Shown here one piece after another: positions 1 to 40,940 of a DNA stretch of 40,940 nucleotides (position 1 is its first letter; each line of letters begins with the position of its first letter). The DNA is from Escherichia phage K30. The stretch lies in the sequence record NC_015719.1. One strand, written 5' to 3'. Made by a program: the position numbers and the translations under genes. The notes beneath the pieces were generated by a model. That model was not told the DNA's origin, searched no databases, and was given only the letters and a program-made list of their open reading frames with translations.

Positions 1-193
1 TCTCACAGTTTACACTTTTGGTTATCCCCCGGTACCCTCTAAGTTAGCCCAAAGTAACCATAGGCCACCCTAAACCTTCGGTTTAACCTTAGGTTGGACT
101 GTTGGGAACCTTGGGTGATACTATATGTAGTGGTTAGTGTGACCTTGGGATACTATATGTTGATCTCTCTGTATCCCTATCTGTTGGTACTCT

Positions 194-224
194 CTAAGTA
201 TCCACTAAGTATCCACTAAGTAAC
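194..224. repeat. Tandem 11-bp repeat CTAAGTATCCA (about 2.7 copies)
   Basis: Read directly: ctaagtatcca ctaagtatcca ctaagtaac; position is analogous to the short repeats next to the T7 left terminal repeat. Confidence 0.7.
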
Positions 225-334
225 AACCTGAGGTTAGACCTGAGGACATCCATCGACACTATACCTAAGGTTAACTATGCGTCTAACGTTTAGTTACTAT
301 AAGGCTATTGGTGACCATTGTCCATACACCAATC

Positions 335-357
335 AATTAGGTCACACTATAGGGAGA
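335..357 (+). promoter_or_regulatory. Phage RNAP promoter (phiOL-like), aattaggtcacactatagggaga
   Basis: Matches the 23-bp consensus shared by the other 12 promoters; +1 G at about 352. Confidence 0.8.
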
Positions 358-459
358 CACTTAAAGTATTACTAAGAGACCTTTACCATAAAACTACTAT
401 CACTATAGGTCTAACTATAAGACTAACTATAGGTCTAACTAAAAGTTTAACTTTAGGTG

Positions 460-3144: not shown

Positions 3145-5865
3145 ATGAACGCATTAAACATTGCACGTAATGACTTCTCAGAGATTGAACTGGCCGCTAT
3201 TCCGTACAACATCCTCAGTGAGCACTACGGGGACAGACTGGCACGTGAGCAGTTAGCACTGGAGCACGAAGCGTACGAGCTGGGCGAACAGCGTTTCCTG
3301 AAGATGTTAGAACGTCAGGTTAAAGCTGGTGAGTTCGCCGACAACGTGGCCGCTAAGCCGCTGGTCTTAACGCTGCACCCACAGCTAACCAAACGCATCG
3401 ACGATTGGAAGGAGGAGCAAGCAAACGCTCGCGGCAAGAAGCCTCGCGCATACTACCCGATTAAGCACGGCGTTGCCTCAGAGTTAGCCCTTAGCATGGG
3501 AGCTGAGGTACTCAATGAGAAGCGTGGAGTGTCCAGTGAGGCTATCGCACTGCTGACCATTAAGGTCGTCTTAGGGACGCTCACAGACGCCTCTAAAGCC
3601 ACCATCCAGCAAGTATCCTCGCAGTTAGGCAAGGCGCTTGAGGATGAGGCCCGCTTCGGTCGTATCCGTGAGCAGGAGGCTTCCTACTTCAAGAAGAACG
3701 TAGCGGACCAGCTGGACAAGCGTGTGGGTCACGTGTACAAGAAGGCTTTCATGCAGGTCGTCGAGGCCGATATGATTTCCAAGGGGATGCTAGGCGGTGA
3801 CAACTGGTCCAGCTGGAAGACCGACGAGCAGATGCACGTTGGGACCAAGCTACTGGAACTACTCATTGAGGGCACTGGTCTGGTGGAAATGACCAAGAAC
3901 AAGATGGCCGATGGCTCTGACGATGTGACCAGCATGCAAATGGTCCAGCTGGCTCCAGCCTTCGTGGAACTACTGAGTAAACGAGCGGGAGCACTCGCAG
4001 GAATCAGCCCAATGTACCAACCGTGCGTAGTCCCTCCGAAACCTTGGGTTGAAACCGTGGGAGGTGGCTACTGGTCTGTAGGTCGTCGTCCGCTGGCACT
4101 GGTGCGTACCCACTCCAAGAAGGCACTGCGTCGCTACGAAGACGTTCACATGCCAGAGGTATACAAAGCGGTCAACCTCGCGCAGAACACACCGTGGAAG
4201 GTAAACAAGAAGGTACTGGCGGTAGTCAATGAGATTATCAACTGGAAGCACTGCCCGGTGGGTGACGTCCCAGCGATTGAACGCGAAGAGCTACCACCAC
4301 GCCCGGACGATATCGACACCAACGAGGTGGCACGTAAGGCTTGGCGCAAGGAGGCCGCAGCGGTTTACCGTAAGGACAAGGCCCGCCAGTCTCGCCGCTT
4401 GTCGATGGAGTTCATGGTCGCACAGGCCAACAAGTTCGCTAACCACAAGGCCATCTGGTTCCCGTACAACATGGACTGGCGTGGTCGTGTGTACGCTGTG
4501 AGCATGTTTAACCCACAGGGTAATGATATGACCAAGGGTATGCTGACATTGGCCAAAGGTAAGCCAATCGGTCTCGATGGGTTCTACTGGCTGAAGATTC
4601 ATGGTGCAAACTGTGCAGGCGTCGATAAGGTTCCTTTCCCTGAGCGCATCAAGTTCATCGAAGAGAACGAGGCCAACATTCTAGCGAGTGCAGCCGACCC
4701 GCTGAATAACACTTGGTGGACCCAGCAAGATTCACCGTTCTGTTTCTTAGCGTTCTGCTTTGAGTATGCAGGGGTAAAACATCACGGCCTGAATTATAAC
4801 TGTTCGCTGCCACTGGCGTTCGATGGGTCCTGCTCTGGGATTCAGCACTTCAGCGCAATGCTCCGCGATTCTATCGGTGGTCGTGCTGTTAACCTGCTGC
4901 CTTCTGATACCGTGCAGGATATCTACAAGATTGTTGCCGACAAGGTTAATGAGGTACTCCACCAGCACGTTATCAACGGGTCTCAGACGGTGGTCGAGCA
5001 GATTGCTGATAAGGAGACTGGTGAGTTCCGCGAGAAGGTAATGTTGGGCGAGTCTGTACTAGCTGCTCAATGGTTACAATACGGGGTGACCCGCAAGGTG
5101 ACCAAGCGTTCTGTCATGACGTTGGCGTATGGTTCCAAAGAGTTTGGCTTCCGCCAGCAAGTTCTGGAAGATACCATTCAGCCCGCTATCGACAATGGTG
5201 AGGGCCTGATGTTTACGCACCCTAACCAAGCGGCTGGCTACATGGCTAAGCTGATTTGGGACGCTGTGACCGTGACCGTAGTAGCCGCTGTCGAGGCGAT
5301 GAACTGGCTGAAGTCTGCTGCTAAACTGCTTGCCGCTGAAGTCAAGGATAAGAAGACCAAGGAGGTACTTCGTAAGCGTTGCGCAATCCACTGGGTAACA
5401 CCAGATGGCTTCCCAGTGTGGCAAGAGTACCGCAAGCAGAATCAAGCGCGCCTGAAGCTGGTCTTCCTAGGTCAAGCCAACGTTAAGATGACGTACAACA
5501 CCGGGAAGGACTCAGAGATTGACGCTCACAAGCAGGAATCTGGTATCGCTCCTAACTTTGTACACTCGCAAGACGGTAGTCACCTTCGCATGACCGTAGT
5601 ACATGCCAACGAGGTCTACGGGATTGACTCCTTCGCACTCATCCATGACTCCTTCGGGACCATTCCGGCAGACGCTGGGAATCTCTTTAAGGCAGTCCGT
5701 GAGACGATGGTAAAGACCTACGAGGACAACGATGTAATCGCTGACTTCTACAACCAGTTCGCTGACCAGCTGCACGAGTCTCAGCTTGACAAGATGCCAG
5801 CGGTACCAGCCAAAGGTGACCTTAATCTGCGTGATATCTTAGAGTCTGACTTTGCGTTTGCGTAA
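3145..5865 (+). CDS. 1: Single-subunit DNA-directed RNA polymerase (T7 gene 1)
   Basis: 906 aa; colinear recalled similarity to T7 RNAP across the whole length; C-terminal ...ILESDFAFA. Confidence 0.98.
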   Translation: MNALNIARNDFSEIELAAIPYNILSEHYGDRLAREQLALEHEAYELGEQRFLKMLERQVKAGEFADNVAAKPLVLTLHPQLTKRIDDWKEEQANARGKKPRAYYPIKHGVASELALSMGAEVLNEKRGVSSEAIALLTIKVVLGTLTDASKATIQQVSSQLGKALEDEARFGRIREQEASYFKKNVADQLDKRVGHVYKKAFMQVVEADMISKGMLGGDNWSSWKTDEQMHVGTKLLELLIEGTGLVEMTKNKMADGSDDVTSMQMVQLAPAFVELLSKRAGALAGISPMYQPCVVPPKPWVETVGGGYWSVGRRPLALVRTHSKKALRRYEDVHMPEVYKAVNLAQNTPWKVNKKVLAVVNEIINWKHCPVGDVPAIEREELPPRPDDIDTNEVARKAWRKEAAAVYRKDKARQSRRLSMEFMVAQANKFANHKAIWFPYNMDWRGRVYAVSMFNPQGNDMTKGMLTLAKGKPIGLDGFYWLKIHGANCAGVDKVPFPERIKFIEENEANILASAADPLNNTWWTQQDSPFCFLAFCFEYAGVKHHGLNYNCSLPLAFDGSCSGIQHFSAMLRDSIGGRAVNLLPSDTVQDIYKIVADKVNEVLHQHVINGSQTVVEQIADKETGEFREKVMLGESVLAAQWLQYGVTRKVTKRSVMTLAYGSKEFGFRQQVLEDTIQPAIDNGEGLMFTHPNQAAGYMAKLIWDAVTVTVVAAVEAMNWLKSAAKLLAAEVKDKKTKEVLRKRCAIHWVTPDGFPVWQEYRKQNQARLKLVFLGQANVKMTYNTGKDSEIDAHKQESGIAPNFVHSQDGSHLRMTVVHANEVYGIDSFALIHDSFGTIPADAGNLFKAVRETMVKTYEDNDVIADFYNQFADQLHESQLDKMPAVPAKGDLNLRDILESDFAFA

Positions 5866-5875
5866 GGTCTCAGGC

Positions 5876-5898
5876 AATTAGGGCACACTATAGGGAAC
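5876..5898 (+). promoter_or_regulatory. Phage RNAP promoter (phi1.1A-like), aattagggcacactatagggaac
   Basis: Consensus match; followed by AT-rich repeats of acttaaag. Confidence 0.85.
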
Positions 5899-5963
5899 CT
5901 TCGAACGACCGAGGTTTCCATTACTTAAAGTCTTAACTTAAAGAATACTTAAAGAGGCACACC

Positions 5964-6524
5964 ATGACTTACTCAATCGTTGTAACCATCTTGTTAATCA
6001 TCACCACAACGCTCTTCATTGTGAGTCTTCGCAATGCAATACGCAACGAAGAACTATTGGGGCGTTTGATTCAAGAAGCAAACTCCCAGCTTAGTGATGC
6101 GTCGACCAAGGTTCTTCGACTGACGGACAAGGCTAACTTCCTTGGTAAACAGGTGCGTTACTTAGAGAGTGAACTTGAGGAAGAAAAGCAGAAGGTGCTA
6201 GATGTGTACGAACTACGGAAGCGACAGCGGGACCGCATGAAGTTCCTGAGCAAGTCTCTTAAGGAAGCCCAAGATGAGCTGATGATGGTCTCTGACCTGA
6301 TTCACGTTAAGTTCACCGCTGTGTTACCTGATGGCACTCGCTCTAAGACTCTCTTTAAGTTAGGACTTGGACCTTGTGGTCTACACGTTAAGTCCCTTCG
6401 CTGGACTGAGCTAGACGACCGCTATCTGATAGACCAGCTGTGCACCAACGGCGAGCGCAAGCAGTTCACTTACTTTAAGAGCGAAGTAGTAGGGCGTATC
6501 GAGTTCCGCCACGGTAAGGTTTAA
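5964..6524 (+). CDS. Hypothetical membrane-anchored coiled-coil protein (gene 1.05 position)
   Basis: 186 aa; N-terminal hydrophobic helix, heptad-like charged stretch, about 80-aa C-terminal domain; AAAGAGG RBS; sits between two phage promoters. Confidence 0.6.
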   Translation: MTYSIVVTILLIITTTLFIVSLRNAIRNEELLGRLIQEANSQLSDASTKVLRLTDKANFLGKQVRYLESELEEEKQKVLDVYELRKRQRDRMKFLSKSLKEAQDELMMVSDLIHVKFTAVLPDGTRSKTLFKLGLGPCGLHVKSLRWTELDDRYLIDQLCTNGERKQFTYFKSEVVGRIEFRHGKV

Positions 6525-6545
6525 TTAGGGCACACTATCAGGAAC
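6523..6545 (+). promoter_or_regulatory. Variant phage promoter (phi1.1B-like), aattagggcacactatCAggaac
   Basis: Upstream half matches the consensus exactly; the initiation region is TATCAGG instead of TATAGGG. Confidence 0.55.
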
Positions 6546-6547
6546 AT

Positions 6548-6578
6548 ACTCAAGGTCATCGTTCGGTGGCCTTTATGA
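6548..6578 (+). promoter_or_regulatory. RNase III-type processing hairpin (R1.1-like)
   Basis: actcaaggtcatc-gttc-ggtggcctttatga: 9-bp stem with G:U pairs; same conserved flanks as T7 R1.1 (recalled). Confidence 0.6.
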
Positions 6579-6609
6579 ATGTCCCTAACAACCACTCAGG
6601 AGTAACACC

Positions 6610-6786
6610 ATGTATCAGAACACAATCAACTTTGAGCGCAAACGTGAACGTCAGCAGACTGAGGGTTATATCCCTAAGGGCCGCAAGTTGAACAAGACGA
6701 AGCGCGGTGGTGGCATGAAGGGTTCCTTCCGTAATGCGAAGGGCGACAGTGTTGTCAACCAAGAGAAATACTTCGTAGGAGCATAA
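6610..6786 (+). CDS. 1.1: Gene 1.1-like small basic protein
   Basis: 58 aa; shares KGRKLNKTKR with T7 gp1.1 (recalled); GGAG RBS; not in the ORF track because under 60 aa. Confidence 0.6.
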   Translation: MYQNTINFERKRERQQTEGYIPKGRKLNKTKRGGGMKGSFRNAKGDSVVNQEKYFVGA

Positions 6787-6789
6787 CAA

Positions 6790-7056
6790 ATGGCTGAGCA
6801 AACTAAATGGCTGTTCGATGGTAGCACTTCACAGTGGTCACGATTGGGCGCTACCGAACGAAGACTGACGGATGAGACGGGACTACATGTAATCATGACG
6901 TATATCCATTTCAACCGCACAGTTTTACTCTCCGTGTATGAACCAAGACCAGATTATGACGAGGTACTCATAGAGAAATCCTTCAGTCGCTGGTCGATTG
7001 ACTCAGCGTCAGACTGGCTGGCAAAACTCACAGCCGACTACTCAAGTTGGAAGTAA
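6790..7056 (+). CDS. 1.2: Gene 1.2-like protein (candidate host dGTPase inhibitor)
   Basis: 88 aa; position between 1.1 and ligase; weak recalled similarity at the C-terminus (..DW..K..WK). Confidence 0.55.
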   Translation: MAEQTKWLFDGSTSQWSRLGATERRLTDETGLHVIMTYIHFNRTVLLSVYEPRPDYDEVLIEKSFSRWSIDSASDWLAKLTADYSSWK

Positions 7057-7077
7057 TTAGGACACACTATAGGCAGA
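7055..7077 (+). promoter_or_regulatory. Phage RNAP promoter (phi1.3-like), aattaggacacactataggcaga
   Basis: Consensus match; overlaps the gene 1.2 stop. Confidence 0.8.
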
Positions 7078-7110
7078 CTCAAGGTCATCGGATTCCGGTG
7101 GCCTTTATGA
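7077..7110 (+). promoter_or_regulatory. RNase III-type processing hairpin (R1.3-like)
   Basis: actcaaggtcatcgg-att-ccggtggcctttatga; about 11-bp stem. Confidence 0.6.
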
Positions 7111-7156
7111 TTGCTTATTGCACACTAAATAAATACTACACTTCGGAGACATCATC

Positions 7157-8209
7157 ATGATGAACATTACGACTAATCCATATAAAGCCGTTTCATACGT
7201 ACGCTCTGCTATCGAGAAGGCGCTGGAGACTTCCGGTTACCTCATCGCGGACACTAAGCACGATGGTGTACGCGGGAACATTTGCGTAGACAACACGGCC
7301 AACGCAGCGTGGCTAAGCCGGGTCTCAAAGACCATTCCGGCCCTTGAGCACCTCAACGGTTTCGACCAGCGCTGGCAGCAGTTACTGAAAGATGACCGCT
7401 GGATTTTCCCGGATGGCTTCATGCTTGATGGTGAACTCATGGTCAAAGGTGTGGACTTCAACACTGGGTCTGGCCTGCTGCGTACCAAGTGGCTAAAGGC
7501 TACCAACTACGGGTTCGACTTCGGAGGTGTTCCACCACTGAAGGGTAGCAAGGTAGATTTCTGCCTCGACCCTAAGCAACTAAAAGTTGTTCTGTACGAT
7601 ATCATTCCGCTTGACATTATCGAATCCGGTGATGACTACAACGTGATGACCCTCCTCCGCCTTGAGCACGTCAAGGTAGCCTTACCAGTCCTGCAAGACC
7701 ACTTCCCTGAAGTTGAGTGGTGCCTCTCTGAGTCCCATGAAGTTTACGACATGGACGAACTCGATGCGCTGTACCGACAGAAACGAGGAGAAGGTCATGA
7801 AGGTCTGGTGGTTAAGGACCCTCAGGGTATATATAAGCGCGGTAAGAAGTCCGGCTGGTGGAAACTGAAGCCAGAGAATGAGGCTGACGGTGTAGTAGTT
7901 GGTCTCGTGTGGGGCACTCCCGGTAAGGCCAACGAGGGTAAAGTGATTGGCTTCGAGGTTCTCCTTGAGAGTGGTAGAGTGGTTAACGCTACGAACATCT
8001 CACAGGAACTTATGGATGAGTTCACCTCTCGCGTCAAGGAATACACTACCGAGTGTAATGCTAATGAAGCTGGCTGCTGGTATATGAACCCTTACGAGGG
8101 CTGGGCGTGCCAAATCAAGTACATGGAGGAGACTCCAGACGGTTCTCTGCGTCACCCATCGTTCGATAAATGGCGTGGTAGCGAGGCTGACCCAACCATC
8201 AAGATGTAA
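7157..8209 (+). CDS. 1.3: ATP-dependent DNA ligase (T7 gene 1.3)
   Basis: 350 aa; recalled strong similarity to T7 ligase including the adenylation motif region (IKYDGVRG in T7, TKHDGVRG here) and C-terminal ETPDGSLRHPSF. Confidence 0.95.
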   Translation: MMNITTNPYKAVSYVRSAIEKALETSGYLIADTKHDGVRGNICVDNTANAAWLSRVSKTIPALEHLNGFDQRWQQLLKDDRWIFPDGFMLDGELMVKGVDFNTGSGLLRTKWLKATNYGFDFGGVPPLKGSKVDFCLDPKQLKVVLYDIIPLDIIESGDDYNVMTLLRLEHVKVALPVLQDHFPEVEWCLSESHEVYDMDELDALYRQKRGEGHEGLVVKDPQGIYKRGKKSGWWKLKPENEADGVVVGLVWGTPGKANEGKVIGFEVLLESGRVVNATNISQELMDEFTSRVKEYTTECNANEAGCWYMNPYEGWACQIKYMEETPDGSLRHPSFDKWRGSEADPTIKM

Positions 8210-8230
8210 TTAGGACCCACTATAGGAGAC
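8208..8230 (+). promoter_or_regulatory. Phage RNAP promoter, aattaggacccactataggagac
   Basis: Consensus match; overlaps the ligase stop. Confidence 0.8.
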
Positions 8231-8235
8231 ACCAA

Positions 8236-8322
8236 ATGTCTATCGACCTAATTCTAATCATCGTGTTCATCCTCGCGGCTATCGTGTGGTCAATGAACGA
8301 CGAGCCACCTAAAGGAGCATAA
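8236..8322 (+). CDS. Hypothetical 28-aa hydrophobic peptide (MSIDLILIIVFILAAIVWSMNDEPPKGA)
   Basis: Short ORF immediately after a promoter, AGGAGA upstream; single predicted transmembrane segment. Confidence 0.3.
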   Translation: MSIDLILIIVFILAAIVWSMNDEPPKGA

Positions 8323-8325
8323 ACC

Positions 8326-8589
8326 ATGCGCTTACACTTCAATAAATCAAACGGTATCTTCTCGGTTCGCCGGGAAGACCGCAGCACTGTGGTAGCCTCC
8401 GAGCGCCACGGTAAGATTCCACGTATCGGAGACACCTTCGAGCTGGCTCCTCGCGTGCACATCTTGGTTACTCGCGGTCTCTACGAATTGGCTCAGACTA
8501 AGAGCCGTCCTTTCGTACCCGTAGTGGTAACCAAGTGGCCACGCCTTCGTCTATTCTGGGAGCGCATCAAGGAGGTCGTAAATGACTGA
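8326..8589 (+). CDS. 1.6: Gene 1.6-like protein
   Basis: 87 aa; recalled similarity to T7 gp1.6 (MFRLHYNKS...VRRADRS..ASER..KIP...RIKEV); AAAGGAG RBS. Confidence 0.7.
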   Translation: MRLHFNKSNGIFSVRREDRSTVVASERHGKIPRIGDTFELAPRVHILVTRGLYELAQTKSRPFVPVVVTKWPRLRLFWERIKEVVND

Positions 8590-9007
8590 ACATGAAATTC
8601 TAGTGGTGAACCTGCTGGTTGACCAGAATGCTGACCGCCCAGACTCCACGACGTGCTCTGATGGCGTAAAGTGCTACAAGGTAGCGTGCAAGGAGTGTCC
8701 GCTTAATGTCAAAGGAATGACCATTGGGAAGGTGCGTGCAATGCAGGACAGTAAGACTCCAGATGTAGACAATGGTGTCAAGCAGCCAAGTCACTATCAA
8801 CTGTTCGAAGGCGTCGAGGCCATCGAGGTTATTGCTCGAAGCATGACCCAAGAGATGTTCAAAGGGTACTGCCTTGGGAACATCCTCAAGTACCGACTCC
8901 GTGCTGGTAAGAAGTCCGAGCTGGCTACCTTAGAGAAAGACATGGCAAAGGCCGCTTTCTATCTGGAGCTGTATACCAAGCACAAAGGTCTGTGTTATGA
9001 CGCCTAG
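8582..9007 (+). CDS. 1.7: Nucleotide kinase (T7 gene 1.7)
   Basis: 141 aa; C-terminal half matches T7 gp1.7 from memory (PSHY.LF...EAIEVIARSMT.E.FKGYC.GNILKYRLRAGKKSELA.LEKD.AKA.FY.EL); shorter N-terminus than T7. Confidence 0.85.
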   Translation: MTEHEILVVNLLVDQNADRPDSTTCSDGVKCYKVACKECPLNVKGMTIGKVRAMQDSKTPDVDNGVKQPSHYQLFEGVEAIEVIARSMTQEMFKGYCLGNILKYRLRAGKKSELATLEKDMAKAAFYLELYTKHKGLCYDA

Positions 9008-9122
9008 TGAATGGGCAAGAAAGATGTACGAGAAGACGCTCGACCCTGCGTACATCACCATGTATAACATGTGGAAGGAGCGAGAAGATGCAAAAGTTCG
9101 TCGTAACGGTCGAGACAGCTAA
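8997..9122 (+). CDS. 1.8: Gene 1.8-like small protein
   Basis: 41 aa; SEWARKMYEKTLDPAYITMYNMWK resembles T7 gp1.8 SEWCRKMWEETFDDAYIKLYELWK (recalled). Confidence 0.5.
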   Translation: MTPSEWARKMYEKTLDPAYITMYNMWKEREDAKVRRNGRDS

Positions 9123-9237
9123 CGCATCGTATGAACTCCCGGTACACGCTGGGTCTCTTGAGGAGGCCCTCGAAGTTGCCGAGGCAGAGTACGAAGAGTT
9201 AGGCCAAGTGACTCGGGTACGCCCTGATAGTCATTAG
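9088..9237 (+). CDS. 2: Host RNA polymerase inhibitor (T7 gene 2)
   Basis: 49 aa from an internal ATG with AAGGAG RBS; LEEALEVAE...VTRVRP resembles T7 Gp2 (recalled). Confidence 0.7.
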   Translation: MQKFVVTVETANASYELPVHAGSLEEALEVAEAEYEELGQVTRVRPDSH

Positions 9238-9254
9238 GGCACACTATAGGGACA
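9232..9254 (+). promoter_or_regulatory. Phage RNAP promoter (phi2.5-like), cattagggcacactatagggaca
   Basis: Consensus match. Confidence 0.8.
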
Positions 9255-9296
9255 CAGGCTGTCCCTCTTTCTGTTATAAACCAAAGGAGATTCATC

Positions 9297-9992
9297 ATGG
9301 CATTCGCTAAGAAGAAGATTTACACCACCAAGATTGGTACCTGTGAGCCGTACGCTTACTTCAACAAGCCGGACTATGGCGGTGAGGGTTTTGAGAACCC
9401 ACGCGGTACCTACAAAGGTTCCGTAACGTTCAAGAACGAAGACTGTCAGGAGCTGGTAGACCTCATCGTTAAGACCCATGAGGAAAACTACGCTGCTCGT
9501 CTGGAAGCACATGAAGCGAACCCGCCGAAGGTTCAGAAGGGTAAGAAACCTCTGAAGCCGTATGAAGGCGACATGCCATTCTTCGACAATGGTGATGGTA
9601 CAACCACGTTCAACTTCAAGTGCTACGGTTCGTACGAGGACAAGAAAACCGGCGAGACCAAGAAGATTGTTCTGGGTGTAGTTGACGCCAAGGGCAAACG
9701 TATCCAAGATGTTCCAATTATTGGTGGTGGTTCCAAAGTGAAAATTCGCTTCTCTCTGGTACCGTATGGCTGGTCCGCTGTGGCTGGTGCTTCCGTTAAG
9801 TTGCAACTGGAAGGCGTAATGCTGGTCGAACTGGCTACCTTTGGTGGTGGCGAAGACGATTGGGCTGACGAAGCTGTAGAAGGTGGCTATGAAGCTGACG
9901 AATCTCGCAGCCGCAAACCTCAGGAAGACCCGGAAGACTGGTCTGGTGAGGAAGCGGATGAGGGCGAAGCTGAAGAAGACGATGACTTCTAA
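9297..9992 (+). CDS. 2.5: Single-stranded DNA-binding protein (T7 gene 2.5)
   Basis: 231 aa; recalled strong similarity to T7 gp2.5 (EPYAY..KPDYG, KPLKPYEGDMPFFDNGDGTTTF, VPIIGGGSK, acidic C-terminal tail ending DF). Confidence 0.95.
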   Translation: MAFAKKKIYTTKIGTCEPYAYFNKPDYGGEGFENPRGTYKGSVTFKNEDCQELVDLIVKTHEENYAARLEAHEANPPKVQKGKKPLKPYEGDMPFFDNGDGTTTFNFKCYGSYEDKKTGETKKIVLGVVDAKGKRIQDVPIIGGGSKVKIRFSLVPYGWSAVAGASVKLQLEGVMLVELATFGGGEDDWADEAVEGGYEADESRSRKPQEDPEDWSGEEADEGEAEEDDDF

Positions 9993-10441
9993 TGGCTGGC
10001 TACGGAGCCAAAGGGATTCGGAAGGTGGGTGCCTTCCGGTCTGGCCTTGAGGATAAGGTATCCAAGCAGTTAGAATCAAAGGGCGTCACGTTCGACTACG
10101 AATTGTGGCGCATCCCTTACGTTATTCCTGCGAGTGACCACCTTTACACTCCAGACTTCTTGTTACCTAACGGTATCTTCGTGGAGACTAAGGGTCTCTG
10201 GGAAGCCGAGGACCGCAAGAAGCACCTATTGATTCGCGAGCAATACCCGGAGTTAGACATCCGGTTAGTGTTCTCTTCGAGTCGCACTAAGATTTACAAA
10301 GGGTCACCAACCAGTTACGCTGAGTGGTGCGAGAAGCATAACATCTTGTTTGCCGACAAATTGATTCCCGTAGACTGGCTGAAGGAGCCGAAGCGTGATG
10401 TACCGTTCGGCAAGTTCAAACAGAAGAAAGGAGCAAAGTAA
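9992..10441 (+). CDS. 3: Endonuclease I, Holliday junction resolvase (T7 gene 3)
   Basis: 149 aa; N-terminal MAGYGAKGIRKVGAFRSGLEDKVSKQLESKG identical to recalled T7 gp3. Confidence 0.95.
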   Translation: MAGYGAKGIRKVGAFRSGLEDKVSKQLESKGVTFDYELWRIPYVIPASDHLYTPDFLLPNGIFVETKGLWEAEDRKKHLLIREQYPELDIRLVFSSSRTKIYKGSPTSYAEWCEKHNILFADKLIPVDWLKEPKRDVPFGKFKQKKGAK

Positions 10442-10443
10442 GT

Positions 10444-10899
10444 ATGGCTAAGGTTCAATTCACTAAGCGACAGGAGACCTCTCAGATTTTCGTTCACTGC
10501 TCAGCTACCAAGGCGACCATGAATATTGGCGTCCGTGAGATTCGCCAGTGGCACAAGGAGCAGGGCTGGCTGGACGTAGGGTATCACTTCATCATCCGCC
10601 GTGACGGTACCGTTGAGGTAGGTCGAGACCAAGATGCTGTAGGTTCACACGTCAAAGGCTACAACTCGACTTCGGTCGGCGTGTGTTTGGTGGGAGGTAT
10701 CGACGCCAAGGGCAACCCTGAGGCAAACTTCACTCCAGCCCAGATGCAGGCACTGCGTTCACTGTTGGTAGAACTGAAGGTGCAATACGATGGGGCTGTT
10801 CTGATGGCACACCACGATGTAGCACCTAAAGCCTGCCCGAGCTTCGACCTGAAGCGCTGGTGGGAGAAGAATGAACTGGTCACTTCAGACCGTGGGTAA
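10444..10899 (+). CDS. 3.5: Lysozyme / N-acetylmuramoyl-L-alanine amidase, RNAP inhibitor (T7 gene 3.5)
   Basis: 151 aa; recalled near-identity blocks with T7 lysozyme (IFVHCSATK, VREIRQWHKEQGWLDVGYHFII, AHH.VAPKACPSFDLKRWWEKNELVTSDRG). Confidence 0.95.
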   Translation: MAKVQFTKRQETSQIFVHCSATKATMNIGVREIRQWHKEQGWLDVGYHFIIRRDGTVEVGRDQDAVGSHVKGYNSTSVGVCLVGGIDAKGNPEANFTPAQMQALRSLLVELKVQYDGAVLMAHHDVAPKACPSFDLKRWWEKNELVTSDRG

Positions 10900-10900
10900 A

Positions 10901-10923
10901 CATTAGGGCACACTACAGGGAGA
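10901..10923 (+). promoter_or_regulatory. Variant phage promoter (phi4-like), cattagggcacactaCagggaga
   Basis: Consensus match except TACAGGG instead of TATAGGG. Confidence 0.6.
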
Positions 10924-10962
10924 CAATTACGTTTCCCTGTTGTCGCTTGAGGAGATTACTTT

Positions 10963-40540: not shown

Positions 40541-40940
40541 GTGTATATCTCACAGTTTACACTTTTGGTTATCCCCCGGTACCCTCTAAGTTAGCCCAAA
40601 GTAACCATAGGCCACCCTAAACCTTCGGTTTAACCTTAGGTTGGACTGTTGGGAACCTTGGGTGATACTATATGTAGTGGTTAGTGTGACCTTGGGATAC
40701 TATATGTTGATCTCTCTGTATCCCTATCTGTTGGTACTCTCTAAGTATCCACTAAGTATCCACTAAGTAACAACCTGAGGTTAGACCTGAGGACATCCAT
40801 CGACACTATACCTAAGGTTAACTATGCGTCTAACGTTTAGTTACTATAAGGCTATTGGTGACCATTGTCCATACACCAATCAATTAGGTCACACTATAGG
40901 GAGACACTTAAAGTATTACTAAGAGACCTTTACCATAAAA
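40541..40940. repeat. Right copy of 400-bp direct repeat (includes a second copy of the phiOL-like promoter at about 40875-40897)
   Basis: Identical to positions 1-400 by direct reading. Confidence 0.8.

What the first reader, a model, noticed from the sequence alone, without database searches (positions are those of the whole stretch)
6523..6545. Two promoters with altered initiation regions (TATCAGG at 6523, TACAGGG at 10901)
Both keep the upstream recognition half of the consensus but change the -2 to +1 region that governs open-complex formation and start-site choice. They may be intrinsically weak or differently regulated, or the first may be a decaying duplicate of the promoter 650 bp upstream.
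Basis: seen in the sequence. Interest (0 to 1): 0.4.

Follow-up and report, generated by a model that had tools for sequence, protein, structure and literature searches.

The report
Two conserved variant phage early promoters
These are two ordinary, already annotated early promoters of a K11-like Klebsiella phage; their odd start regions are conserved across relatives and have direct counterparts in T7 and T3, so they are not decaying copies.

Summary
The window is a K11-like Klebsiella podophage (Przondovirus) whose RNA polymerase is 98% identical to K11's. It carries 13 unique K11-type promoters, all on the + strand. The two flagged sites are real. Site 6523-6545 reads AATTAGGGCACACTATC|AGGAAC (-1C, +1A). 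Site 10901-10923 reads CATTAGGGCACACTACA|GGGAGA (-2C). Both match, base for base, the promoters annotated in K11 as phi1.1 and "phi" (the phi3.8 position). The -2C occurs in 54 of 54 Przondovirus loci. TATC|AGGAAC occurs in 26 of 26 loci with K11-type polymerase; relatives with a different polymerase specificity loop have TATA|GGAAC or TACA|GGAAC. Decay is therefore excluded. Precedents exist: T7 phi2.5 (TATT|AGGGAA, starts with A), T3 phi1.3 and phi1.5 (CTAAC|AGGAGA), and T7 and T3 phi3.8 (-2A). T7 in-vitro data give about 48% activity for -2C and about 40% for +1A, so "somewhat weaker" is plausible but untested for K11 polymerase. One addition: the -2 base lies inside the RNase III stem R3.8, which T3 annotates as overlapping phi3.8. 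It pairs C:G here and A:U in T7 and T3, which suggests the promoter and RNA stem share bases. Overall this is already known and of low interest.

The parts
6523..6545 (+). phi1.1 promoter (-17..+6), AATTAGGGCACACTATC|AGGAAC. Position -1 is C at 6539; the predicted +1 is A at 6540. Its 5' end overlaps the gene 1.05 stop codon (6522-6524).
   Evidence: Identical initiation region in K11's annotated phi1.1. 26 of 26 K11-group loci.
6540..6586 (+). R1.1-type RNase III hairpin in the phi1.1 leader. Upper stem is AAGGUCAUC/GGUGGCCUU; lower stem is AGGAACAU/AUGUCCCU and starts at +1.
   Evidence: Fold. Positional and sequence match to the R1.1 stem-loop annotated in T3 and to the T7 phi1.1A leader. 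Cleavage not tested.
6610..6786 (+). Gene 1.1, the first gene downstream of phi1.1.
10901..10923 (+). phi3.8-position promoter (-17..+6), CATTAGGGCACACTACA|GGGAGA. Position -2 is C at 10916; +1 is G at 10918. It begins 2 nt after the gp3.5 (amidase/lysozyme) stop codon.
   Evidence: Identical to K11's annotated 'phi' at 10908-10930. 54 of 54 Przondovirus loci.
10915..10940 (+). R3.8-type stem-loop spanning the start site. 5' arm ACAGGGAGAC (-3..+7), loop AATTAC, 3' arm GTTTCCCTGT. The -2 C (10916) pairs with G at 10939.
   Evidence: Folds (read-through RNA z = -4.4). T3 annotates R3.8 from promoter position -4. Stem invariant and loop variable in 54 loci. -2/partner table.
5876..5898 (+). phi1.05 promoter, AATTAGGGCACACTATA|GGGAAC. 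This is the 'promoter 650 bp upstream'.
   Evidence: K11's annotated phi1.05.
5964..6524 (+). Gene 1.05, an optional cassette bracketed by phi1.05 and phi1.1.
   Evidence: Absent from 9 of 54 related loci, with junctions at the promoters.
3145..5865 (+). Gene 1, the single-subunit RNA polymerase that reads these promoters.
   Evidence: 890 of 906 residues identical to K11 RNAP, with the same specificity loop.

Best explanation
Both sites are working, conserved early-region ("class II"-type) promoters for the phage's own K11-type single-subunit RNA polymerase. Site 6523 is phi1.1, corresponding to T3 phi1.1 and T7 phi1.1A. Site 10901 is the phi3.8-position promoter.

The polymerase binds the intact -17..-5 element and melts -4..+2. 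Inferred from the T7 and T3 analogy:
- The -2 T>C change at 10901 makes melting harder and costs roughly half the activity.
- At 6523 the base placed at +1 by spacing is A, so transcripts most likely begin pppAGGAAC, as at T7 phi2.5 and T3 phi1.3 and phi1.5. Some starts may occur at the next G.

These private initiation sequences are fixed lineage traits, not decay. Part of the constraint is that the same bases also encode RNase III processing hairpins. The R3.8-type stem covers -3..+7, so -2C pairs with G10939. The R1.1-type stem begins at +1 of phi1.1.

The expected result is modestly weaker, condition-sensitive promoters that supplement read-through transcription of genes 1.1-1.3 and of gene 4 onward.
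For: Shown here:
- The motif occurs 13 times on one strand against 0 expected.
- The cognate RNAP is 98% identical to K11's.
- Both sites equal K11's annotated promoters base for base in -5..+6.
- -2C is present in 54 of 54 Przondovirus loci, across two polymerase and promoter dialects and two upstream contexts. Variation is confined to the -10..-8 triplet and the hairpin loop.
- TATC|AGGAAC is present in 26 of 26 K11-group loci.
- Every early promoter keeps its own initiation sequence across the genus.

Precedents:
- T7 phi2.5 is TATT|AGGGAA, T7 phiOL starts with A, and five T7 class II promoters have a non-T base at -2, including phi3.8.
- T3 phi1.3 and phi1.5 are CTAAC|AGGAGA.
- phi2.5 initiates with A and gives useful yields (PMC3683919).
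- T7 variant activities: WT 141-188, -2C 80.5, +1A 68.0 (PMC5937735 S2).

Hairpin evidence:
- T3 annotates R3.8 overlapping phi3.8 from position -4.
- In T7, R3.8 lies just downstream of the phi3.8 start (PMC6938266).
- Read-through RNA folds with z = -4.4.
- -2 pairs C:G here and A:T in T7 and T3. The same position is unpaired in 32 of 33 phi9/10/17-type hairpin promoters.
Against: - There is no transcription, start-site or RNase III cleavage data for this phage or genus.
- The strength estimates come from T7 RNAP on a T7 promoter, not from K11 RNAP. The -1C/+1A double variant was not in the accessible part of that dataset.
- phi2.5 can match class III yields in vitro, so the variants may not be weak at all.
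- The C:G versus A:U covariation is essentially one evolutionary event. Two T7-like loci tolerate a T.T mismatch, and another clade (L079-81) shows no stem extension.
- The -1 C of phi1.1 is not explained by any pairing.
Confidence: 0.8

Rival explanations
1. Site 6523 is a decaying, non-functional duplicate of the phi1.05 promoter at 5876, and 10901 is similarly a degenerate copy.
For: phi1.05 and phi1.1 share the whole upstream half and the GGAAC start region. They bracket an optional gene 1.05 cassette that is lost in 9 of 54 loci, with junctions inside the promoters.
Against: The variant bases are invariant in 26 of 26 and 54 of 54 loci, while adjacent neutral positions (the -10..-8 triplet, the loop, the flanks) vary. 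Both sites are annotated promoters in K11. Positional orthologs exist in T3 and T7. Only 2 to 4 of 23 positions differ from the consensus.
Confidence: 0.03
2. The variants are functionally neutral. These promoters fire as well as consensus ones, from the same position, and the odd bases were simply fixed in an ancestor and carried along.
For: T7 phi2.5 (-1T/+1A) can give yields similar to class III promoters in vitro. -2A is near wild type in T7. RNA started at phi1.1 contains the complete R1.1-type hairpin, so its 5' end is probably cut off, making an A or G start irrelevant to the mature mRNA.
Against: Strict invariance over a genus that differs by about 10-27% elsewhere and varies at neighbouring promoter positions. 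T7 -2C and +1A single variants drop to about 40-50%. Class II promoters as a group are weaker and more condition-sensitive (PMC11617373).
Confidence: 0.15
3. The -2C at 10901 is selected purely to tune promoter strength, setting the gene 4 primase/helicase dose. Its complementarity to G10939 is coincidental.
For: -2C halves T7 promoter activity. The promoter-initiated RNA does not contain -2, so pairing matters only for read-through RNA. L079-81 show no extended stem.
Against: T3's annotated R3.8 stem includes -4..-1. In the collection-wide scan, -2C never occurs without partner G and partner G never occurs without -2C (54 C:G, 15 A:T, against unpaired -2 at non-R3.8 hairpin promoters). Stem bases are invariant while the loop varies.
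Confidence: 0.25

Closest known systems
Klebsiella phage K11 promoters phi1.1 (NC_011043 6428-6450) and 'phi' (10908-10930)
   Same: Same genomic positions and the same -5..+6 sequences (TATC|AGGAAC and TACA|GGGAGA). The polymerase is 98% identical.
   Different: The window's phi1.1 has -10G/-8A (GGGCAC) where K11 has -10A/-8C (GGACCC). Overall genome identity is only about 90%.
T7 class II promoter phi2.5 (TAATACGACTCACTATT|AGGGAA) and T3 phi1.3/phi1.5 (…CACTAAC|AGGAGA)
   Same: A pyrimidine at -1 and A at +1 followed by GG, in the early gene region. phi2.5 is known to initiate with ATP.
   Different: Different polymerase specificity and different genome positions. The start nucleotide at the window's site has not been mapped.
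T7 phi3.8/R3.8 and T3 phi3.8/R3.8 (promoter overlapping an RNase III stem-loop)
   Same: Same position after the lysozyme gene, the same GGGAGAC…GTTTCCC hairpin, a non-consensus -2 in T7, and a stem that reaches into the promoter's -4..-1.
   Different: The -2 base pair is C:G here and A:U in T7 and T3. In T3, -2A is simply the consensus. RNase III cleavage has not been shown for the Klebsiella phages.
T7 phi1.1A (CAATACGACTCACTATA|GAGGGAcaaACTCAAGGTCAT…)
   Same: It is the positional ortholog of the 6523 site. It is the first promoter after gene 1 that leads into an ACTCAAGGTCAT…GTGGCCTTTATGA RNase III hairpin and gene 1.1, and it has a non-consensus initiation region.
   Different: T7 starts with G and has +2A. 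T7 has no gene 1.05 cassette and has a second promoter, phi1.1B, 75 bp downstream.

Membership tests
T7-group single-subunit RNAP promoter, K11 specificity | A 23-bp element whose -17..-5 binding region matches the genome's own repeated consensus | tested here: met
   Site 6523 matches the consensus at all of -17..-2. Site 10901 differs only at -17 and -2. 0 matches expected by chance.
T7-group single-subunit RNAP promoter, K11 specificity | The cognate polymerase is encoded in the same genome | tested here: met
   Gene 1 at 3145-5865 is 98% identical to K11 RNAP and has the same specificity loop.
T7-group single-subunit RNAP promoter, K11 specificity | Co-oriented with the genes, intergenic, and at a position orthologous to annotated promoters | tested here: met
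   K11 phi1.1 and 'phi'; T3 phi1.1 and phi3.8; T7 phi1.1A and phi3.8.
T7-group single-subunit RNAP promoter, K11 specificity | Specific transcription initiation at +1 | not testable with these tools
   No start-site or in-vitro data could be found. The Han et al. 2002 paper on K11 promoters is not held.
Class II (early/DNA-metabolism) promoter subclass | Located in the gene 1-6 region and deviating from the late-promoter consensus, mainly in -4..+6 | tested here: met
   All six promoters from 5876 to 10901 deviate in -2..+6. All late promoters except phi6.5 read TATA|GGGAGA; phi6.5 reads GGGAAG.
Class II (early/DNA-metabolism) promoter subclass | Weaker, and more sensitive to salt and lysozyme, than class III promoters | not testable with these tools
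   Only the T7 analogy is available: -2C about 48% and +1A about 40% of wild type; general statement in PMC11617373.
RNase III processing site overlapping a promoter (R3.8 type) | A stable stem-loop at the position of the annotated T3 R3.8 and the T7 R3.8, extending into promoter positions -4..-1 | tested here: met
   A 10-bp stem at 10915-10940, with read-through RNA z = -4.4. T3 annotation. T7.
RNase III processing site overlapping a promoter (R3.8 type) | Base pairs maintained by compensatory change | tested here: inconclusive
   -2/partner is C:G in 54 loci and A:T in 15, with mismatches only at 2 phi3.8 loci, while the position is unpaired at non-R3.8 hairpin promoters. However, this is effectively one evolutionary event.
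RNase III processing site overlapping a promoter (R3.8 type) | Cleavage by host RNase III | not testable with these tools
   This needs an in-vitro cleavage assay or 5'/3'-end mapping in wild-type versus rnc hosts.
Decaying duplicate / pseudo-promoter | Relaxed constraint, meaning the variant positions differ among close relatives | tested here: not met
   The variant bases are invariant in 26 of 26 and 54 of 54 loci, while neighbouring positions vary.

The most novel reading that the evidence does not exclude
At the phi3.8 position the promoter and an RNase III site are written in the same bases. On this reading, the "weakening" -2C is there because it must pair with G10939 to keep the R3.8 stem in read-through RNA (C:G in Przondovirus, A:U in T7 and T3). 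Promoter strength at this site would then be a by-product of RNA-level selection.

A more remote possibility concerns the A(+1) start of phi1.1. It could let the phage polymerase initiate with NAD or other adenosine cofactors, as T7 phi2.5 does in vitro. However, the 5' end is probably removed at the R1.1-type hairpin, which makes this unlikely to matter.
Probability: 0.45. Interest if true: 0.3.

Novelty: already known. Interest (0 to 1): 0.15.

Why it matters
It matters little beyond annotation. Both elements are already annotated in phage K11, and they follow the well-known pattern that early promoters of T7-like phages deviate from the late consensus in the melting and start region. The useful outcomes are practical:
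- These sites should be annotated as phi1.1 and phi3.8.
- They should not be "repaired" or treated as defects when Klebsiella phage genomes are engineered.
- Anyone editing the -4..+23 region of phi3.8 should remember that it probably also encodes an RNase III stem.

Tried and rejected
- A fuzzy-regex extraction timed out, and a first strict regex missed the K11-type hairpin. Both were replaced by a looser regex.
- MAFFT shifted the 3' arm by one column between clades. I therefore did not use column-based pair counting and instead anchored pairs on +1 and CCC in a script.
- The experimental paper on K11 genomic promoters (Han et al. 2002) is not held.
- Searches for K11 or Przondovirus promoter and start-site data found nothing specific.
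- The T7 records shown by the tool do not list RNase III sites. The T3 record does.
- Rfam has no family matching anywhere in the window.
- I looked for a pairing partner for the -1 C of phi1.1 in the R1.1-type hairpin and found none (and inspection).
- The idea of two freely mixing promoter types within a genome was rejected. Most genomes use one dialect, and it tracks the RNAP specificity loop; only 3 genomes are mosaics.

Full report
**What the window is.** The 7-kb region around the finding is about 90% identical to many Klebsiella phages of the genus Przondovirus, the K11/KP32 group. The window's gene 1 polymerase matches K11 RNA polymerase at 890 of 906 residues, with an identical specificity loop. 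The window appears to be IMG/VR contig IMGVR_UViG_651703039_000001. That contig is also 40,940 bp long, and two loci fetched from it are exact substrings of the window.

**Checking the observation.** The sequence at 6523-6545 is AATTAGGGCACACTATC|AGGAAC. The sequence at 10901-10923 is CATTAGGGCACACTACA|GGGAGA. The core motif TTAGGGCACACTATAGGGA occurs 13 times with up to 3 mismatches, always on the + strand, against none in 100 shuffles. A looser scan adds one more site at 8208 and nothing on the - strand. The first 393 nt of the window repeat at its end, so there are 13 unique promoters. The -1 and +1 bases are altered at the first site, and the -2 base at the second.

**These sites are already annotated.** The K11 reference record annotates 13 phage promoters. 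Two of them, phi1.1 (6428-6450) and an unnamed "phi" (10908-10930), occupy the same positions as the two flagged sites. Their -5..+6 sequences are identical to the window's, TATC|AGGAAC and TACA|GGGAGA. This holds even though K11's phi1.1 differs in the upstream half, GGACCC against GGGCAC.

**Conservation.** I collected 80 loci from IMG/VR, anchored on the gp3.5 amidase rather than on the promoters, spanning 97% down to 73% protein identity.
- The promoter after gp3.5 reads TACA|GGGAGAC…GTTTCCCTGT in 54 of 54 Przondovirus loci. This covers two promoter dialects and two upstream contexts.
- Per position, only the -10..-8 triplet and the hairpin loop vary. The -2C, its partner and all other stem bases are invariant.
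- At phi1.1, 26 of 26 loci of the K11 dialect have TATC|AGGAAC. In the TAG dialect, 22 loci have TATA|GGAAC and 2 have TACA|GGAAC. The C therefore behaves as a 1-nt indel ahead of a fixed AGGAACATACTCAAGG leader.
- Every early promoter keeps its own private start sequence across the genus: phi1.05 GGGAAC, phi1.3 GGCAGA, phi1.6 GGAGAC, phi2.5 GGGACA.

Together these results exclude decay.

**Precedents in the model phages.**
- T7's annotated promoters include phi2.5 TATT|AGGGAA, phiOL TATA|AGGAGA, and five class II promoters with A at -2, among them phi3.8.
- T7 phi1.1A is the positional ortholog of the 6523 site. It reads TATA|GAGGGA and runs into the same ACTCAAGGTCAT… hairpin.
- T3 phi1.3 and phi1.5 read CTAAC|AGGAGA, the same -1C/+1A pattern as the window. 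T3 phi1.05, phi1.1 and phi4.3 also have -1C.
- Other lineages show the same heterogeneity, for example TACT|AGGAGA and CAGT|AGGAAC in L072.
- phi2.5 is documented as A-initiating and productive (PMC3683919).
- Class II promoters are described as weaker and more condition-sensitive (PMC11617373).

**Likely functional effect.** A high-throughput T7 dataset (PMC5937735, S2 File) gives these activities:

| T7 variant | Activity (RNA reads / DNA reads) | Approximate share of wild type |
|---|---|---|
| Wild type | 141-188 | 100% |
| -2A | 138-161 | near wild type |
| -2C | 80.5 | 48% |
| +1A | 68.0 | 40% |

By analogy the two sites are probably weakened about two-fold, not disabled. This is inference from a related polymerase. 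The -1C/+1A double variant was not in the accessible part of that file.

**An additional constraint at 10901.**
- RNA reading through the site folds into a 10-bp stem, ACAGGGAGAC/GUUUCCCUGU, which includes promoter positions -3..-1 (dG -22.3 kcal/mol, z = -4.4). RNA started at the promoter keeps only 7 bp.
- The T3 record annotates "RNase III recognition site R3.8" as a stem-loop beginning at position -4 of promoter phi3.8.
- In T7, R3.8 lies just downstream of the phi3.8 start (PMC6938266).
- The -2 base pairs C:G in the Przondovirus clade and A:T in T7- and T3-like phages. Two loci carry a T.T mismatch.
- A collection-wide scan that left both bases free gave C:G 54 and A:T 15, all in the phi3.8 context. 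Among hairpin promoters of the phi9/10/17 type (plus the two T.T phi3.8 loci), it gave T.C 22, T.T 10, A.C 1 and T:A 1.

So pairing through -2 is specific to the site where an RNase III stem is annotated. The evidence is suggestive only. It amounts to about one compensatory event, and one clade (L079-81) lacks the stem extension.

**At 6523.** The leader forms an R1.1-type hairpin whose lower stem begins at +1, spanning 6540-6586. This matches the R1.1 annotated in T3. RNA started at phi1.1 contains the whole hairpin, so its 5' end is probably removed. That reduces any consequence of an A or G start. No pairing explains the -1 C.

**The "duplicate" idea.** phi1.05 and phi1.1 bracket gene 1.05. 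The gene is missing from 9 of 54 loci, and either promoter type is left at the junction. T3's phi1.05 and phi1.1 also share one private start sequence. A historical duplication or recombination link is therefore plausible, but the copy is conserved.

**Verdict.** Both sites are known, conserved, class II-type phage promoters. Novelty is "already known", and interest is low.

Noticed in passing
window 1-393 and 40548-40940: The first 393 nt are repeated exactly at the end of the window, so phiOL appears twice (335 and 40882). K11's annotated terminal repeat is only 180 bp and does not include phiOL, so this may be an assembly overlap or a permuted start. The window matches IMGVR_UViG_651703039_000001.
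   Followed up: partly
window 5876-6545 (phi1.05, gene 1.05, phi1.1); loci L012, L017, L021, L028, L030, L037, L039, L043, L050: The gene 1.05 cassette lies between two near-identical promoters and is absent from 9 of 54 related loci. The junctions keep either the phi1.05-type or the phi1.1-type promoter, which suggests promoter repeats act as recombination or deletion end-points.
   Followed up: partly
window 5385-5545 (RNAP specificity loop) and all promoters; loci L002-L057: Przondovirus genomes fall into two promoter dialects: -10..-8 is GCA/ACC/ACA in one and TAG in the other. These track the RNAP specificity loop (…LGQANVKMTYNTGKDSE… versus …LGQANVFMTYNKGEAKE…), with K versus F at the equivalent of T7 Q758, the residue that contacts -8. 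Three genomes are mosaics carrying both promoter kinds.
   Followed up: partly
loci L004, L005, L011, L013, L020, L033, L035, L039, L052, just after gp3.5: Some relatives carry an extra short ORF of about 100 nt between the lysozyme gene and the phi3.8-position promoter, at the place of T3 gene 3.7. The window and K11 lack it.
   Followed up: no
window 7055-7130 and 6546-6586: phi1.1 and phi1.3 are each followed at once by the same ACTCAAGGTCATC…GGTGGCCTTTATGA hairpin type, matching the R1.1 and R1.3 stem-loops annotated in T3. No Rfam family covers these elements.
   Followed up: partly
window 5899-5963: The AT-rich leader after phi1.05 (…CCATTACTTAAAGTCTTAACTTAAAGAATACTTAAAGAGG) lies where the T3 record annotates the primary origin of DNA replication, so phi1.05 may also serve as the origin promoter.
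   Followed up: no
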